64,000 nt of DNA. Source: a phage. The DNA is taken from sequence record PZ386970.1; one strand, given 5' to 3'. The notes beneath the pieces were generated by a model. The model searched no databases. It was not told where the DNA came from and was given only the letters and a program-made list of their open reading frames with translations. Positions 3,741-41,707 of the stretch are shown here, one piece after another. Each line of letters starts with the position of its first letter. Positions within the stretch are counted from its first letter, which is position 1. The translations under genes and the position numbers were made by a program.

Positions 3741-4756
3741 TGTGTTGCCTCAATATAAAGTTCGTTGGAATATTTGACCAGCGCTTCTCTGTCTTCGTCT
3801 GAGATATCTGGAATCGCATCAATATATTCTTTAATGATATCTTGAAGTGATTTAATCTCGATTTCCTGGTCGTCATCGGATTCAACACTGTTATCAACTT
3901 TAGAAACCATACGAAGAGAGTGAACTACTTTTTCAAGTTCAGATTCAAACTTAGTCAATTCTGAATCAATTTCTGATACTATAACACGTACGGCTAGATT
4001 AGTATAATCAGAATAATTGATTTTGCCTTTAAACGGATAAGTGATTCGTCGATGCCATGTTGTTTCATTAGGAATAAATTCCATACGTTCAACATCAGTG
4101 TCAAATACCCAGAATCCGCGCGGGTCATTCTCATCGCCTGCAGTAAGGGTCCATGGTGTCCCAATATATTTGACGTTAGCAGCTTCAGAGATTGTGTGGA
4201 AGTGGCCAGACCAGACTTGTTTATAGGTCTTTAAGAAATCAGGTTCAAGCCCATGAGACTTCATTCCTTTATAGAAATAAAAGCCATTCAGTTCCCAGTG
4301 TCCAACACAATACGCAGCAGAAGAAGTCTTGATGTGCTCTAAGATTTCACCTGTATTTTCTTCACACATCCATGGAATTAAATCAATCAGACACCCATCG
4401 AAATCAACAGTCGTAGGTTTATCATAAATAACAACATTTTTACGATGAGACAAAAGCTCTTGGGTTGTATTAGGGTATAAAGTTGTCTTATAAAAAAGGT
4501 CGTGGTTACCCAAAATAGTGTGAACGGTTATTCCAGCGTTTTCAGCCATATCAAATAATTCACGAGTAAACTCCATACAACGTTGTGTTGTGTGAGCTCG
4601 TACATCAAATACGTCCCCGTACTGTATCCATGTTGTTATTCCATTTTTAACAGAATAATCCACCATTTGTTTGAATCCGTGTCGTTGGATGTTTTGAATC
4701 CAAACATCATCCTTTTTTACACCTAAGTGCAAATCGCCCACGTTAAGAATTTTCAT
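3737..4756 (-). CDS. 47: recombination endonuclease nuclease subunit gp47 (Mre11/SbcD-like)
   Basis: Calcineurin-like phosphoesterase motifs GDLHLG and GNHD; start moved to MKILNVGD by analogy to T4 gp47. Confidence 0.85.
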   Translation of the reverse strand: MKILNVGDLHLGVKKDDVWIQNIQRHGFKQMVDYSVKNGITTWIQYGDVFDVRAHTTQRCMEFTRELFDMAENAGITVHTILGNHDLFYKTTLYPNTTQELLSHRKNVVIYDKPTTVDFDGCLIDLIPWMCEENTGEILEHIKTSSAAYCVGHWELNGFYFYKGMKSHGLEPDFLKTYKQVWSGHFHTISEAANVKYIGTPWTLTAGDENDPRGFWVFDTDVERMEFIPNETTWHRRITYPFKGKINYSDYTNLAVRVIVSEIDSELTKFESELEKVVHSLRMVSKVDNSVESDDDQEIEIKSLQDIIKEYIDAIPDISDEDREALVKYSNELYIEATQ

Positions 4757-10847: not shown

Positions 10848-12120
10848 TGGTGTTTAACCCTATGCATGATTTCTTTATTTTTACCGAGATTAAATCCGCG
10901 TTCGTTCGGATTTCCCAAATAGCCGCATGTTCTTCTTATGGTGTTCATCTTTTTAGGATCAGTTTCTCCACAAACTGAACAAACAAATCCGTTTTCAGTA
11001 GGAGTCATTTCATGAGTACTTCCGCATGTAAAACATTTATCCACTGGCATATTAACACCAAAATAATCTAAATGTTGTGCAGCATAATCCCAGACAGCCT
11101 CAAGACCCTTTAAATTGTTTTTCATATCTGGAAGTTCAACATAAGAAATGTGACCACCTGTCGCAATGAAATGATATGGCGCTTCACGAGAAATCTTTTC
11201 AAATGGAGTAATATTTTCTTCTACTGAAACATGGAAACTGTTAGTGTACCAGCCTTTATCGGTAACATCTTTTACACTTCCATATTTTTCTGTGTCTAGT
11301 TTACAGAAACGATAACAAAGGTTTTCAGCAGGAGTAGAATACAAACTAAAAGCAAATCCAGTTCTTTCAGTCCACTGTTTAAGATGAGCATTCATTTTAG
11401 TTAAAATTTCTTGCCCAATATCACGACCAACAAGAATATTCAATTCATGAATACCAATGTATCCTAAAGACACTGAACTTCTACCATTTTTAAATAACTC
11501 AATTATGTCATCATCAGGTTTAAGACGAACCCCGAATGCACCTTCTTGGTAAAGAATAGGAGCAACAGTCGCTTTAACTCCTTTTAAGGAACTAATTCTA
11601 CACATCAAAGCTTCAAAACATAAATCCATTCGTTCATTGAATAATTCAACAAATTTCTGTTCATTGAACTGTGTTCCAATATAAGAATCTAATGCGATAC
11701 GAGGAAGATTCAGTGTTACAACACCGAGATTATTACGTCCATCAAGAATTTCATTACCAGTCGAATCTTTCCATACACTCAAGAAACTACGGCAGCCCAT
11801 TGGAGAAACAGGAACAGATGAACCGGTAATAGCTTTATTATTCTTAACAGAAATAATGTCAGGATACATTCTTTTGCTTGCACATTCTAACGCAAGTTGT
11901 TTAATATCATAGTTCGGATCATCTTTATAAAGATTAACACCCTCTTCAACAAACATAACAAGTTTAGGAAAAATAGGAGTTATCCCATCACGACCAAGAC
12001 CTTTAATACGATTTTTCAGAATTGCTTTCTGAATCATTCGTTCAGTCCAGTCAGTTCCCGTACCAAATGTAATTGTTACAAAAGGCGTTTGTCCATTAGA
12101 GCTGAAAAGTGTATTTACTT
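10844..12120 (-). CDS. nrdD: anaerobic ribonucleotide reductase NrdD, exon 2 (5' boundary approximate)
   Basis: Glycyl radical motif RTCGYLG and C-terminal zinc ribbon CFTCGS...CSVCGE; reading frame continues from exon 1 across a roughly 1 kb intron; splice acceptor not mapped. Confidence 0.8.
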
Positions 12121-29115: not shown

Positions 29116-29694
29116 TTAATTACCACGGGCTGCATTAGCAACGGCGTAAGCGTACTGAACATTAGCGTCTTTAAATGTACCTTTAGAGGTATCTATTTCC
29201 GCCTTAAAGCCGCCTTTAGCCATTACATCGGCAAATTCTTTACGGAAAGCCATTGCGTCAAGACCTTTCCATGATGATTTATGCTTGGCAAATTCAAGAC
29301 CAGCGTAGTTGACAGCCTTAGCTAATTTATTATCAATAACCCATTTACCTGCTTTAGGCACAAACTTCGGACCTTTTTGTTTAGAGAACAGTTTTAAATT
29401 CCAACGACGAAGGTCACTGTCGGCTTTAACAAAAGCTGCATCTAAGTTACTAGCAACAACATCTTCAATATGAGCAAATTTAAGTCCGTCAACTTCAATA
29501 TTTAGATCGTTACGCCAGCGTAGTCCTTCCCAAGCGAAGGCTTTAAAATCAGAAGCTTTTGTGGCTAGATATCGTTCAAGTGGAGCAGTTTTAGGGTCAA
29601 AGCCGTTTCCGCCACGATAATTCCACTCGTCCTTATTAATGCCTTGGACTTTTCCTGCAAAGGCCTCGGCGATAAATTCTTTATACGTTTTCAT
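29116..29694 (-). CDS. internal protein (IPIII-like) with capsid-targeting N-terminus
   Basis: 192 aa starting MKTYKEFIAE, the T4 internal-protein capsid-targeting/protease-cleavage sequence. Confidence 0.6.
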   Translation of the reverse strand: MKTYKEFIAEAFAGKVQGINKDEWNYRGGNGFDPKTAPLERYLATKASDFKAFAWEGLRWRNDLNIEVDGLKFAHIEDVVASNLDAAFVKADSDLRRWNLKLFSKQKGPKFVPKAGKWVIDNKLAKAVNYAGLEFAKHKSSWKGLDAMAFRKEFADVMAKGGFKAEIDTSKGTFKDANVQYAYAVANAARGN

Positions 29695-29720: not shown

Positions 29721-30035
29721 TTATTCTTTAGGGAAGTTTTTAGAGTATGCATCATAAAGTTTATTACCAATACGGCGGAAGACTTTAGCTGCAAAACGGT
29801 TTTCAGGGTTTTTAATCATGATTTGCATCATGTAAGTTCCTGCATCCGAAAGAGCTTCTTCATAGTACCCATTAATTTCTTTAAGAGTCCTACGTTTACC
29901 GCCAGGACCGTCAACAGTAATTTTCCATTTACCTGTAGAAGTGCGGCTCGGTGGCTCAACTTGTTCAATCCAAATATAACCACCTTCAACGCGTTGGTTG
30001 GCGGATTCTGCAATAAATTCTTTATACGTTTTCAT
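29721..30035 (-). CDS. internal protein-like (capsid-targeting N-terminus)
   Basis: 104 aa starting MKTYKEFIAE. Confidence 0.55.
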   Translation of the reverse strand: MKTYKEFIAESANQRVEGGYIWIEQVEPPSRTSTGKWKITVDGPGGKRRTLKEINGYYEEALSDAGTYMMQIMIKNPENRFAAKVFRRIGNKLYDAYSKNFPKE

Positions 30036-30837: not shown

Positions 30838-31119
30838 CTATTTTTCTGAAGCGCCTGAAATATATTTTTCAAGACGTTGTTTCATCAGCGAGCCGTTCTT
30901 AGCGATTTCTTCCGGTTTATCGCACATACGCAACAGTGCTTCAAGCTTAACGATATCACTGGTGCGCTCAAATTTGCGAGTATCTATCTTACTAGCAAGT
31001 TCAGAAATACGTGCTAATAGACTTTCGGCTTCGACCAAAGCTGCACCTAGCTTAGTTGCAAATGTGTCAGTAGCTTCGTTAAGAATAGATTCTGATAAAA
31101 ATTCACTATATGTTTTCAT
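30838..31119 (-). CDS. internal protein-like (capsid-targeting N-terminus)
   Basis: Start moved to [10 protein letters not shown]; helical 93 aa protein. Confidence 0.5.
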
Positions 31120-37948: not shown

Positions 37949-38254
37949 TTAATTTTTCCAACTTAACAACTTGTAGTATCCTTCATTCGTACGAGGTTTA
38001 TCCCAAGAAATACTAATATATGATTCGCTATCAATAGAAGTCGCCGGGTTTTTCTCTACCGTAAGACCTTCACTTTCCAGCCATTCAATAGTATTTGCGC
38101 ATAAATCAGAAGAACACCTCATCGGAAACCGGCAAGATTTTTCACCTTTAGCTGCAGTGTTATACATCTTTTCTAAAATACGCTTTTGCACGTTTTTAAA
38201 AATAGTTTCAGCAGATTCTTCAGATTTTTTATTCAGTTCAGTATAAAGACTCAT
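37949..38254 (-). CDS. hypothetical protein
   Basis: 101 aa ORF. Confidence 0.4.
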   Translation of the reverse strand: MSLYTELNKKSEESAETIFKNVQKRILEKMYNTAAKGEKSCRFPMRCSSDLCANTIEWLESEGLTVEKNPATSIDSESYISISWDKPRTNEGYYKLLSWKN

Positions 38255-38282: not shown

Positions 38283-38311
38283 ATAGTATCACATCTAGGG
38301 AAGAAGTAAAC
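38283..38311 (-). promoter_or_regulatory. T4-type early promoter
   Basis: Minus strand GTTTAC-17 nt-TGA-TACTAT followed by AGACTTATC. Confidence 0.5.
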
Positions 38312-38331: not shown

Positions 38332-38360
38332 GACCCCCTAATGGGGACCGAAGTCCCCAT
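38332..38360 (-). terminator. UUCG-tetraloop hairpin element
   Basis: Minus strand AAUGGGGAC-UUCG-GUCCCCAUU followed by AGGGGGUC, directly after the stop at 38364; same architecture as the element at 20665-20692. Confidence 0.4.
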
Positions 38361-38363
38361 TCT

Positions 38364-38990
38364 TTACTTACGAGTTTTTGCATACTGAGCAGCGTCAGCA
38401 GCCAAACGACCTGCTTGTCGAAGTTTTTCTTTAATCTCATCATGAAGTGGTTGAGTATACTTCAAACCTTCGATAGTCAAATAAAGACGATAAAGGTCTG
38501 GGGTATCAAGGTTGTTGATATGTTGACCATTACGAAGAATATTGAATTCACGAACGAGTGAAGATGTATCAGATTCAATATCACGAACAAGCGAAGATAG
38601 TTGTTTATATTTTTTTTCCAGGCTAGAAGTATCAAACTTAAGAGCAGGAGCTTTAGGAGTTGCTTTTACTTCCGGCTTAGGCTCAGGTTTTGCTACTGCT
38701 TTAGGGGTCGCAGGTTTAGGAATGGTAGGAGCAGGTTTTACTTTAGGCGAACCAGACTTAGCAGAAACACCACCACTAACAATATCTTTGAATGCTTTAG
38801 AAGCTCTATAATATTCTTTTTGGCTTGAAGTGTCGATACCGTACATGGCTTGAACGTTTTTGAAAAACTCTGTACTAGTTTTTGTACCAGAAATAGCATC
38901 GTAAGCAGCTTGCCATTTCTCTTTTGTCATACGTACACCGGCTTCGGTGATTACTTCCGTTTCGGCTAAAAATTCATTAAAAGTATACAT
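38364..38990 (-). CDS. internal protein-like with proline/lysine-rich repeat region
   Basis: 208 aa starting MYTFNEFLAE (capsid-targeting-like), with central KP/AP-rich low-complexity tract. Confidence 0.5.
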   Translation of the reverse strand: MYTFNEFLAETEVITEAGVRMTKEKWQAAYDAISGTKTSTEFFKNVQAMYGIDTSSQKEYYRASKAFKDIVSGGVSAKSGSPKVKPAPTIPKPATPKAVAKPEPKPEVKATPKAPALKFDTSSLEKKYKQLSSLVRDIESDTSSLVREFNILRNGQHINNLDTPDLYRLYLTIEGLKYTQPLHDEIKEKLRQAGRLAADAAQYAKTRK

Positions 38991-39033
38991 TGATGGTCCT
39001 TAGAAGGTAGGTTTATTGTTTACTATATTTATA

Positions 39034-39063
39034 CAAAAAAGCCCCAACCTTTCGGAAGGGGCT
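39034..39063 (-). terminator. rho-independent terminator
   Basis: Minus strand AGCCCC-UUCCGAAAGGUU-GGGGCU followed by UUUUUU; closes the tRNA region. Confidence 0.55.
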
Positions 39064-39111
39064 ATGCCTTGCGGCAACCTTGTCGGGGTTCCACCTGCTA
39101 AGGCAAGTGTT

Positions 39112-39206
39112 TGTACGAAACGCCGGGATTTGAACCCGGTTATTAAGTAGTTGACGCTACTCAATATTTTTAAAAGGCCATATCTCGACCATATCCGAAC
39201 GTTCCG
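39112..39206 (-). ncRNA. tRNA-like RNA (unresolved; possible class II tRNA or small stable RNA)
   Basis: Canonical T-arm CCGGG-UUCAAAU-CCCGG on the minus strand and a possible 7-bp acceptor pairing about 92 nt apart; I could not fold a canonical D-arm or anticodon arm by eye. Confidence 0.3.
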
Positions 39207-39374
39207 TCAAAAACGCTACTCGGCTTACGGCAAAGATATTTCCTCGAATCGATAATTCTGTGCGCCGTTTCTGCTGTGATGTAAGGGGATATTAACAAAT
39301 CATAAAGATTTATTAAGACCAGTCCTTACTCAGGGAACATCAGTCCGACGACTTGCCGGTAGCGACCCGGCTTC

Positions 39375-39722
39375 TTATTTTGGCATATCATCAATTTGTT
39401 CTCGACGCCTACGCCATAGATTAATCGCTTCATTGACACATTCTGCGTTTGGTATATGACGGCAATAATATAATGATTCGCGTTTCTGGAACCGATGTTG
39501 CAACGGGATTTCGTTTAAAAGGTCTTTACGGTCAAAGTATTCAAAACTAGTTAACCCGGAACGGTTTTTAAGAAACTTCCAATGTCCGAATTCATTTTGA
39601 AAATAAACATAATCAGCATGCTGATACAGCGAATTAATTAACCTATCGGAAATAACTGTTTCACGTTCGTTAAAATAAAACGTTAAATCATGAACTACCA
39701 GATAAACATTGCCTTTCATATT
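39375..39722 (-). CDS. hypothetical protein within tRNA region
   Basis: Start moved to MKGNVYLVVHDL..., preceded by a GAGGA ribosome-binding site; the longer ORF-track start would overlap the tRNA-Arg gene. Confidence 0.4.
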   Translation of the reverse strand, partial: NMKGNVYLVVHDLTFYFNERETVISDRLINSLYQHADYVYFQNEFGHWKFLKNRSGLTSFEYFDRKDLLNEIPLQHRFQKRESLYYCRHIPNAECVNEAINLWRRRREQIDDMPK

Positions 39723-41398: not shown

Positions 41399-41707
41399 CT
41401 ATTTTATTCCGCGTGATGCAATCGTATTCTGCCGTTTAACGCCAGTTTGTTTAAAGTTATGATTGTCGAGTTGATCGGTACGAGCAACTCCGAATGATGA
41501 TTTAATCTTAGCTTTAGATCCTTTAGTTATAGAAATAAACATCTCGGGAGCCCCTTTCTTAAAGTCCGAAGCAATTACTTCAACACCGTTCTTAGCAAGT
41601 GACCTCAGAATTGCTTCCGCATACTCATCATCAAGACCCGCTTGAGTATGAATAACGAATGTCTTTGGTGCAGCTGCTTCACAGATAAATTCTTTAAATG
41701 TTTTCAT
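41399..41707 (-). CDS. internal protein I-like (capsid-targeting N-terminus)
   Basis: 102 aa starting MKTFKEFICEA; located directly upstream of 57B, the ipI position in T4. Confidence 0.55.
   Translation of the reverse strand: MKTFKEFICEAAAPKTFVIHTQAGLDDEYAEAILRSLAKNGVEVIASDFKKGAPEMFISITKGSKAKIKSSFGVARTDQLDNHNFKQTGVKRQNTIASRGIK

What the first reader, a model, noticed from the sequence alone, without database searches (positions are those of the whole stretch)
38364..38990. Internal-protein-like gene with a Pro/Lys-rich low-complexity core
This ORF combines a capsid-targeting-like N-terminus (MYTFNEFLAE) with a central tract KVKPAPTIPKPATPKAVAKPEPKPEVKATPKAPALK. Such a tract is unusual for T4 internal proteins and resembles flexible linkers or histone-like DNA-binding tails. 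It could be a packaged DNA-binding protein. It is flanked by its own early promoter and a UUCG-hairpin element.
Basis: seen in the sequence. Interest (0 to 1): 0.55.

Follow-up and report, generated by a model that had tools for sequence, protein, structure and literature searches.

The report
Candidate new packaged internal phage protein
This is a real gene of an RB69-like (T4-type) phage that has sequence features of a protein loaded into the phage head and injected with the DNA, and it belongs to a small family that every database still calls "hypothetical".

Summary
The ORF at 38364-38990 (minus strand, 208 aa) is real. Its Pro/Ala/Lys tract is genuine coding sequence: related phages differ there only by in-frame indels.

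The window comes from a Mosigvirus (RB69-like phage). The N-terminus MYTFNEFLAE-TEVITE|A matches the T4 capsid-targeting sequence (MKTYQEFIAE). It has the required residues at positions 4, 7, 8 and 10 and two L/I-x-E prohead-protease sites. Only five ORFs in the window carry this motif, against 0.005 expected by chance. The other four lie at or beside the ipI and ipII/ipIII loci; three fall in PHROGs annotated internal head/virion protein.

The motif is the best-conserved part of a small family (PHROG 2280, unknown function) confined to T4-like enterobacterial phages. The predicted mature protein is 21 kDa, pI 9.7. It has two small helical domains joined by a disordered cationic linker. In some relatives the C-terminal domain is replaced by an unrelated one.

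The gene lies between the rnaC terminator and a UUCG hairpin and has only a T4 late promoter (TATAAATA), kept exactly or 7 of 8 in every relative examined.

Most likely it is a previously unrecognised internal protein, possibly an anti-restriction effector. Packaging, cleavage, DNA binding and target are all untested. It is a new member of a known kind.

The parts
38364..38990 (-). ORF of 208 aa (stop codon included). It is a precursor of a candidate internal head protein and a member of PHROG 2280 (unknown function).
38961..38990 (-). Residues 1-10, MYTFNEFLAE. This is a CTS-like targeting motif ending in the first L-x-E protease site (LAE-10).
38943..38960 (-). Residues 11-16, TEVITE. This is the second protease site, ITE-16|A. 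E16 is invariant and A17 nearly invariant in the 12-sequence alignment. The layout matches the T4 IPI propeptide MKTFKEF...ITE|A.
38772..38942 (-). Residues 17-73: small N-terminal three-helix domain (helices 23-31, 39-50, 57-72; pLDDT about 80-87).
38637..38771 (-). Residues 74-118: Pro/Ala/Lys-rich linker, predicted disordered (pLDDT below 50 for residues 74-112), net charge +8, 64% P+A+K. Length varies among relatives only by in-frame indels, and it is the breakpoint for C-domain swaps.
38367..38636 (-). Residues 119-208: C-terminal three-helix domain (pLDDT about 86-93) with the strongly conserved loop RNGQH(I/M)NNL(D/E)TPDLY.
38997..39001 (-). Shine-Dalgarno AAGGA, 6 nt before the ATG.
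   Evidence: read /
39026..39033 (-). T4-type late promoter octamer TATAAATA, 35 nt before the ATG. It is exact in the homologs from Dhakavirus, Karamvirus and Tegunavirus and in OR088902, and 7 of 8 (C/GATAAATA) in the others.
39035..39063 (-). Intrinsic terminator (hairpin plus U6, -21 kcal/mol) that ends the tRNA/rnaD/rnaC transcription unit. It is shared with T4.
38340..38361 (-). 9-bp hairpin with a UUCG tetraloop, 2 nt after the stop codon. It marks the 3' end of the cassette.
38283..38311 (-). T4 early-type promoter GTTTAC-17 nt-TACTAT. It belongs to the next gene (38254..37949), not to this ORF.
   Evidence: read

Best explanation
The gene encodes a previously unrecognised internal (head-packaged, injected) protein of T4-type phages.

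Shown by sequence:
- It is a stand-alone cassette made of a late promoter, the ORF and a UUCG hairpin, placed between the rnaC terminator and the next early promoter. Expression should therefore be late only, together with the head proteins.
- The precursor begins with a capsid-targeting sequence and two L/I-x-E sites.

Inferred:
- The N-terminal motif docks the precursor on the scaffolding core of the prohead.
- The gp21-type prohead protease cuts after E10 and/or E16. This releases a 21-22 kDa protein of pI 9.6-9.7 that stays in the head with the DNA and leaves with it at infection.
- The protein is two small helical domains on a roughly 45-residue cationic, proline-rich tether. The tether would keep it loosely associated with the packed DNA and let it thread through the portal and tail channel.
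- By analogy with T4 Ip1, Ip2 and Ip3, each of which inhibits one GmrSD type IV restriction enzyme, the conserved C-terminal domain most likely binds and blocks a host defence protein at the moment of DNA entry. The replacement of that domain in some relatives fits such an arms-race role.
For: Motif and processing sites:
- The T4 CTS is MKTYQEFIAE (PMC8442874). Targeting depends on residues 4 and 7, and processing on residues 8 and 10 (PMC9026906). Here these are F4, F7, L8 and E10.
- gp21 cuts after L/I-x-E. LAE-10 and ITE-16 are present. Every member listed, plus the split RB69 gene, keeps at least one such site within the first 17 residues.
- Only 5 of 6257 start codons in the window carry the motif, against 0.005 expected. 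The other four lie at or beside the ipI and ipII/ipIII loci, and three of them fall in PHROGs annotated internal head/virion protein.
- Among distant family pairs, residues 1-10 are the most conserved segment: 54% identity against 22-33% elsewhere.
- Profile comparison with the internal proteins of the same genome aligns only the first 18-25 residues, as expected for this class.

Expression:
- TATAAATA or a 7-of-8 variant lies 25-40 nt upstream of the gene, or of its two-gene operon, in all loci examined.
- A terminator lies upstream and no early-type site does.

Product and distribution:
- The mature form is 21.3 kDa, pI 9.73, net +13. That is like the IPIII-type protein of the window (20.3 kDa, pI 9.6) and the most cationic of the five.
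- The gene is accessory. It is found in 139 phage records, none of the listed ones a Tequatrovirus. It is absent from T4, which has only 285 bp at the locus. In RB69 it is replaced by a split divergent copy.
- P0019 and P0023 are about 95% identical over residues 1-75 and then unrelated. PHROG 2280 matches only the N half of the CIP9 and P0023 proteins.
- Ip1, Ip2 and Ip3 each block one GmrSD variant (PMC12373910).
Against: - There is no experimental evidence. I found no virion proteomics for any homolog, and every database name is 'hypothetical protein'.
- Position 2 is Y, or L in most relatives, instead of K.
- The canonical ip genes of this genome and T4 ipI have early-type promoters directly upstream. 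This gene has only a late one, so its regulation differs from the classical internal proteins.
- TATAAATA is not over-represented in the window (8 found, 8.7 expected). The promoter call therefore rests on position and cross-genus conservation.
- The proposed target is pure analogy.
Confidence: 0.6

Rival explanations
1. It is a packaged internal protein whose job is structural or physicochemical only. As a histone-like polycation it would neutralise and organise the packed DNA or protect it on entry, with no specific host target. This is essentially the first reader's idea.
For: It is the most cationic of the five CTS-bearing proteins in the window (net +13). The linker is always net positive (+3 to +10) and 52-82% P/A/K across the family, although its sequence is not conserved. 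T4 internal proteins are described as highly basic and embedded in the DNA.
Against: The strongest sequence conservation is in the C-terminal helical domain and its RNGQHINNLDTPDLY loop, not in the charge-bearing linker. Some relatives swap the C-domain for an unrelated one, and the gene is dispensable in many T4-like phages. Both facts fit a specific, evolving target better than bulk charge neutralisation. The linker has three [ST]PK[AV] motifs but no S/TPKK, and a charge density of about 0.18 per residue. The three T4 internal proteins long assumed to be DNA counter-ions turned out to be specific GmrSD inhibitors.
Confidence: 0.15
2. It is an accessory component of the prohead scaffolding core, in the manner of gp67 or gp68. 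It would be targeted to the core and cut by the protease, but then expelled or degraded rather than kept and injected.
For: It has a late-only promoter like the head morphogenesis genes and unlike the canonical ip genes. It is all-helical with long helices and has a CTS plus L/I-x-E sites.
Against: Core proteins are cut into many fragments. This protein has only three L/I-x-E sites. Two sit in the first 16 residues, and the third (IKE-188) is not conserved in the family. Core genes belong to the conserved T4 core genome, whereas this gene is patchy and absent from T4.
Confidence: 0.1
3. It is a late cytoplasmic protein that is not packaged. The CTS-like N-terminus would be a relic of recombination with the 5' ends of ip genes and would have no targeting role.
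For: There is no proteomic evidence for packaging. Position 2 departs from the canonical K. The gene lies outside the two classical ip loci.
Against: A functionless relic would not be the most conserved segment of the protein across genera that share only 25-45% identity overall. Nor would it keep an L/I-x-E site in every member. The split RB69 gene at the same locus and a second small ORF in OR088902 also start with the motif.
Confidence: 0.14
4. It is not a real gene: a chance ORF or a frameshifted artefact across a low-complexity stretch.
For: Low-complexity DNA also gives spurious antisense ORFs here (38542-38811 and 38601-38828 on the plus strand).
Against: The full-length ORF is conserved in 139 phage records of several genera, down to about 31% identity. 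All indels are in frame. A Shine-Dalgarno sequence, a promoter and a 3' hairpin are in place. The globular domains are predicted with confidence.
Confidence: 0.01

Closest known systems
[quoted passage not shown] 1994, as cited in PMC12373910)
   Same: All have an N-terminal 10-19-residue propeptide of the type MKT(Y/F)xEF...(L/I)xE|. The layout here, MxTFxEF...ITE|A, is the same as in T4 IPI (MKTFKEFTSTTTPVSTITE|A). The mature product is basic and has the size of IPIII. The gene is non-universal and hypervariable, and similarity between families is limited to the propeptide. It lies in the same genome segment as the ipI locus, on the other side of the tRNA cluster.
   Different: There is no sequence or fold similarity to any known Ip beyond the propeptide. 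It has a two-domain architecture with a 45-residue P/A/K tether and exchangeable C-domains. It has a late-only promoter behind a terminator, whereas ip genes have early-type promoters directly upstream. It sits at a different locus, between rnaC and e.8. Residue 2 is Y or L rather than K. Packaging and target are untested.
T4 Alt (packaged ADP-ribosyltransferase)
   Same: Alt is a head-packaged, injected protein processed by gp21 at an ITE site (ITE-6; PMC5694885). It is larger than the small Ips and has more than one domain.
   Different: There is no homology and no enzyme domain here. Alt is also cut at its C-terminus (LTE-619), whereas this family has no conserved C-terminal site.
Lys/Pro/Ala-rich nucleic-acid-binding tails (histone H1 C-terminal domain, mycobacterial HupB tail, Pseudomonas AlgP) and Pro-rich spacers such as the TonB (EP)n(KP)n rod. 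Comparison from general knowledge.
   Same: The segment is low-complexity, predicted disordered, net positive and rich in K, P and A. It contains a short KPEPKPE element that gains or loses KP/VA dipeptide units between strains.
   Different: Charge density is about 0.18 per residue against roughly 0.4 in H1. It has no S/TPKK motifs, only [ST]PK[AV]. It is an internal linker between two folded domains rather than a terminal tail. No DNA-binding test was possible.
Adenovirus core proteins pVII and pX/mu (from general knowledge)
   Same: These are basic proteins packaged with the genome as precursors and trimmed by the virion maturation protease.
   Different: They come from an unrelated virus and have unrelated sequences. 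They condense DNA stoichiometrically, and nothing shows that this protein does.

Membership tests
T4-type CTS-targeted internal head proteins | An N-terminal capsid-targeting sequence resembling MKTYQEFIAE, with the targeting determinants at residues 4 and 7. | tested here: met
   MYTFNEFLAE has F4 and F7, 6 of 10 residues identical and 3 conservative changes relative to the T4 CTS. The motif occurs 5 times in 6257 start codons against 0.005 expected. It is the most conserved segment of the family.
T4-type CTS-targeted internal head proteins | A prohead-protease (gp21) site L/I-x-E at the end of a 10-19-residue propeptide. | tested here: met
   LAE-10 and ITE-16|A are present. E16 is invariant and A17 nearly invariant in the 12-sequence alignment. 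Every member has at least one such site within the first 17 residues.
T4-type CTS-targeted internal head proteins | A basic mature protein. | tested here: met
   The form starting at A17 is 21.3 kDa, pI 9.73, net +13; cutting at E10 instead gives 22.0 kDa and pI 9.62. All 12 homologs have pI 9.3-9.8.
T4-type CTS-targeted internal head proteins | Non-essential and variably present among T4-like phages. | tested here: met
   The gene is found in 139 phage records, and none of the 60 listed is a Tequatrovirus. It is absent from T4. RB69 carries a split divergent copy. Some relatives have swapped C-domains.
T4-type CTS-targeted internal head proteins | Physical presence of the cleaved protein in DNA-filled heads. 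| not testable with these tools
   No virion proteomics for any homolog was found in the held literature.
T4-type CTS-targeted internal head proteins | Ejection into the host together with the DNA. | not testable with these tools
   This needs an experiment.
GmrSD (type IV restriction) inhibitors Ip1/Ip2/Ip3 | Sequence or fold similarity of the mature part to Ip1, Ip2 or Ip3. | tested here: not met
   hhalign against two of the window's internal proteins (the IPIII-like one and the 93-aa one) aligns only residues 1-18 and 1-27. There are no structural matches in PDB.
GmrSD (type IV restriction) inhibitors Ip1/Ip2/Ip3 | Inhibition of a specific GmrSD variant. | not testable with these tools
   The function is proposed by analogy only (PMC12373910).
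Histone H1-like / SPKK DNA-binding tails | Repeated S/T-P-K/R-K/R motifs and a very high positive charge density. | tested here: not met
   The linker has SPKV, TPKA and TPKA but none with a basic fourth residue. Its net charge is +8 over 45 residues. Pfam gives no hit.
PHROG 2280 (unknown function) | A full-length profile match. | tested here: met
   E = 4.8e-58 over residues 1-203, covering the whole profile.

The most novel reading that the evidence does not exclude
The family is a modular delivery chassis for injected effectors. A conserved unit, made of the capsid-targeting propeptide, the small N-terminal helical domain and the cationic proline-rich tether, carries interchangeable C-terminal 'warhead' domains into the host with the DNA. 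New warheads would be acquired by recombination within the low-complexity linker, much as in polymorphic toxin systems. The locus just after the rnaC terminator would then be a third, late-expressed internal-protein locus of T4-like phages. It would hold alternative alleles, as in RB69 ORF149c/148c and the CIP9 type, and even tandem CTS-bearing ORFs, as in OR088902.
Probability: 0.25. Interest if true: 0.7.

Novelty: new member of a known kind. Interest (0 to 1): 0.45.

Why it matters
Injected internal proteins act against host immunity at the moment the phage DNA enters the cell. In 2025 all three T4 internal proteins were shown to be specific inhibitors of different GmrSD type IV restriction enzymes (PMC12373910).

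Each newly recognised CTS-bearing family is therefore a candidate inhibitor of a defence system that may not yet be known, and a possible determinant of host range in therapeutic T4-like phages. Many of the carriers of this gene are E. coli, Shigella, Enterobacter and Klebsiella phages.

This family is unannotated everywhere. Its tethered two-domain build and swappable C-domain differ from the classical small, compact internal proteins. It also extends the sequence space known to work as a capsid-targeting tag, which is used to load foreign proteins into T4 heads.

Tried and rejected
Searches that gave nothing usable:
- Pfam: one sub-threshold hit only (SIX1_SD, E = 0.098).
- PDB by sequence profile: only eL34 at E about 0.04, driven by composition.
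- Foldseek against PDB: nothing below E = 2.
- Foldseek against BFVD: only family members.
- Rfam around the gene: only the two tRNAs.
- The sigma-70 promoter scan found no site upstream of the ORF, so the early-promoter claim was dropped.
- Literature: no virion proteomics or naming of any homolog. The searches covered fHe-Yen9-01, JS98, Mosigvirus, six protein accessions and RB69 with propeptide. The JS98 genome paper and Repoila et al. 1994 are not held.
- Large protein searches: 18 hits among 5.8 billion cluster representatives and 13 representatives among 1.84 billion. All examined are from T4-like phages and none is named.

Ideas considered and rejected:
- A frameshift artefact or non-coding tract.
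- A MotA-type middle promoter. The GGCTTTT just upstream is only 3 nt from the -10 region (read).
- A statistical argument from the count of TATAAATA in the window. There are 8 against 8.7 expected, so only its position and conservation carry weight.
- A direct homolog in RB69. tblastn found none, but a family profile then recovered the split ORF149c/148c.

Full report
**What is there.** The window is a stretch of a Mosigvirus (RB69-like, T4-type) genome. The 1.5 kb around the finding is 96-97% identical to phages LNA2, ST0, HX01 and JS09. On the minus strand, 38364-38990 is an ORF of 208 aa that starts MYTFNEFLAETEVITEAG and contains the reported Pro/Lys/Ala-rich tract. tblastn finds it in 139 phage records. 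These include Mosigvirus (91-99.5% identity), Dhakavirus such as JS98 (63-67%) and Winklervirus (58%). Kanagawavirus (50%, with some N-terminal-only matches), Tegunavirus (42%), Karamvirus and Marfavirus (31-35%) also carry it. None of the listed records is a Tequatrovirus, and every annotation reads "hypothetical protein". Pfam gives nothing. PHROGs places it full-length in phrog_2280, "unknown function". The family is small: 18 hits among 5.8 billion cluster representatives and 13 representatives at 50% identity among 1.84 billion. No source gives it a name.

**The low-complexity tract is genuine coding sequence.** Among close Mosigvirus relatives the tract differs by indels of 6 and 6 nt (a gained KP, a lost VA). 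JS98 adds further 3-nt ones, and every homolog keeps a single open frame. In a 12-sequence alignment across seven genera the linker is 25-54 residues long, 52-82% P+A+K and always net positive (+3 to +10). Its actual sequence is not conserved. AlphaFold2 (mean pLDDT 72) predicts helices 23-31, 39-50 and 57-72, then a disordered stretch at 74-112 (pLDDT below 50), then helices 122-153, 164-177 and 180-206 with pLDDT around 90. The protein is therefore two small helical domains joined by a cationic, probably extended tether.

**The N-terminus.** The T4 capsid-targeting sequence is MKTYQEFIAE (PMC8442874).
- Mutational work summarised in PMC9026906 places targeting at residues 4 and 7 and processing at residues 8 and 10. 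Propeptides are 10-19 residues long. The prohead protease gp21 cuts after L/I-x-E.
- The ORF has F4, F7, L8 and E10, followed by a second site, ITE-16|A.
- T4 IPI, as annotated in NC_000866, starts MKTFKEFTSTTTPVSTITE|A. That is the same layout.
- A regular expression for the motif hits 5 of 6257 start codons in the window, against a mean of 0.005 in shuffles.
- The other four hits are 41399-41707, 30838-31119, 29721-30035 and 29116-29694. They lie at or beside the ipI and ipII/ipIII loci, and three are in PHROGs annotated internal head/virion protein.
- Within the family, residues 1-10 are the most conserved segment among distant pairs: 54% identity against 33% for the N-domain and 22% for both the linker and the C-domain.
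- Every family member listed, and the split RB69 gene, keeps at least one L/I-x-E site in the first 17 residues.
- Profile comparison with two of the internal proteins of the same genome (the IPIII-like one and the 93-aa one) aligns only the first 18-25 residues. This is what the literature describes for the class, namely diverse proteins "with only a conserved CTS".

**The predicted product.** Cutting at E16 gives 21.3 kDa, pI 9.73, net +13. That is about the size and charge of the IPIII-type protein of the window (20.3 kDa, pI 9.6), and it is the most cationic of the five CTS-bearing proteins. Only one further L/I-x-E exists (IKE-188), and it is not conserved in the family. The protein would therefore be trimmed, not shredded as scaffold proteins are.

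- Window 39031-39380 is 92% identical to T4 70825-71173, which covers rnaD, rnaC and their terminator.
- The homology to T4 stops exactly at TATAAATA (39026-39033), the T4 late-promoter octamer, 35 nt before the ATG.
- A hairpin plus U6 terminator (39035-39063, -21 kcal/mol) lies immediately upstream. A 9-bp UUCG hairpin (38340-38361) follows the stop codon.
- No sigma-70/early-type site lies upstream.
- An early-type GTTTAC-17-TACTAT promoter lies downstream at 38283-38311 and serves the next gene.
- T4 has only 285 bp between rnaC and e.8. The late promoter, ORF and hairpin therefore form a cassette that T4 lacks.
- TATAAATA is not enriched in the window (8 found, 8.7 expected), so its count proves nothing.
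- However, the octamer or a 7-of-8 variant (C/GATAAATA) lies 25-40 nt upstream of the gene in every relative examined. The surrounding intergenic DNA is otherwise unalignable, and the octamer nearly always follows a hairpin and a tRNA or stable-RNA cluster.
- By contrast, the canonical ip genes of this window and T4 ipI have early-type promoters directly upstream.
- This gene therefore looks late-only, like head morphogenesis genes. That is a real difference from the classical internal proteins, though it is compatible with a packaged protein.

**Variation at the locus.**
- RB69 has no close homolog. At the same position, however, its ORF149c (MKTYAEFLTE|A...) and the overlapping ORF148c together match the family profile at E = 4.6e-15. 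This is a divergent allele split by a frameshift or a sequencing error.
- P0019 and P0023 are about 95% identical over residues 1-75, diverge in the linker and have unrelated C-domains.
- PHROG 2280 matches only the N half of P0023 and of the CIP9 protein. Two Kanagawaviruses, Kosakonia phage 305 and Enterobacter phage CIP9, share only the N-terminal half and linker (44% identity over residues 1-117), with no alignable C-terminal domain.
- In OR088902 the homolog is preceded, under one TATAAATA, by a 70-aa ORF that also starts with a CTS-like sequence (MDFKQFVNESLELVLE|A).
- This is the pattern of a hypervariable, arms-race locus.

I therefore propose, as inference, the following sequence of events:
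- late synthesis of the precursor;
- CTS-mediated docking on the scaffolding core;
- gp21 cleavage at E10 and/or E16;
- retention in the head with the DNA, helped by the cationic tether;
- co-injection with the DNA;
- inhibition of a host defence protein by the conserved C-terminal domain.

The linker has no S/TPKK motifs and a modest charge density, and conservation sits in the C-domain rather than in the linker.

**Verdict.** The internal-protein reading is well supported by sequence logic and unsupported by any experiment. The concept of diverse CTS-tagged injected proteins in T-even phages has been known since 1994 and is currently an active field, so this is a new member of a known kind. 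It has an unusual tethered, modular architecture and late-only regulation. It is worth a virion proteomics check and a deletion/host-range test.

Noticed in passing
window 39031-39380 (minus strand): This stretch is 92% identical to T4 rnaD, rnaC (stable 'species 2/1' RNAs) and their terminator. Rfam has no model that hits it, and ARAGORN does not call it although a tRNA-like T-arm (CCGGGTTCAAATCCCGG) is visible. The HX01 RefSeq record annotates a 144-nt 'hypothetical protein' (D299_gp042) across the equivalent stretch, which is probably spurious.
   Followed up: partly
window 38283-38311 (minus strand): This is a T4 early-type promoter, GTTTAC-17 nt-TACTAT, for the next gene (38254..37949; PHROG 18312, unknown function). 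The segment 38258-38317 is 75% similar to the T4 ipI/trna.4 intergenic region.
   Followed up: partly
L011 (RB69, NC_004928) 11429-11991, minus strand: RB69 ORF149c and the overlapping ORF148c are the two halves of a divergent member of the same family. The gene starts MKTYAEFLTE|A and is split by a frameshift or a sequencing error. The joined sequence matches the family profile at E = 4.6e-15.
   Followed up: partly
L016 (OR088902.1) 3792-4579: Two consecutive ORFs with CTS-like N-termini (MDFKQFVNESLELVLE|A, 70 aa, and MNFKEFLKEEALNE|A, 192 aa) lie behind one terminator and one TATAAATA. They look like a two-gene late internal-protein operon. The second has a third type of C-terminal domain.
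   Followed up: partly
P0019 vs P0023; L006 vs L007: There is a sharp recombination breakpoint at the start of the P/A/K linker. The N-terminal 75 residues are about 95% identical and the C-terminal domains are unrelated. Two phages of one genus (Kanagawavirus: 305 and CIP9) share only the N-terminal half and linker.
   Followed up: yes
window 29721-30035 (-), 30838-31119 (-): The 104-aa ORF with a perfect CTS (MKTYKEFIAE|S) falls in PHROG 3966, 'unknown function', so it is an under-annotated internal protein. The 93-aa internal head protein ([15 protein letters not shown]|A) would be neutral after cleavage (pI 6.3), unlike the usual basic internal proteins. Its bipartite propeptide is nearly the same as that of the JS98 homolog of the finding (MKTYNEFLNESVLNE|A).
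   Followed up: partly
window 39367-39711 (minus strand): An ORF homologous to RB69 ORF150c / HX01 gp041 lies between tRNA-Arg and rnaD. In T4 those two RNA genes abut each other, so this is another small insertion in the stable-RNA cluster.
   Followed up: no
window 38364-38990; The exact 208-aa protein is on record from 'Shigella sonnei' assemblies on contigs of about 170 kb (EFW1905320.1, EFW1995160.1). These are whole T4-like phage genomes deposited inside bacterial assemblies.
   Followed up: no
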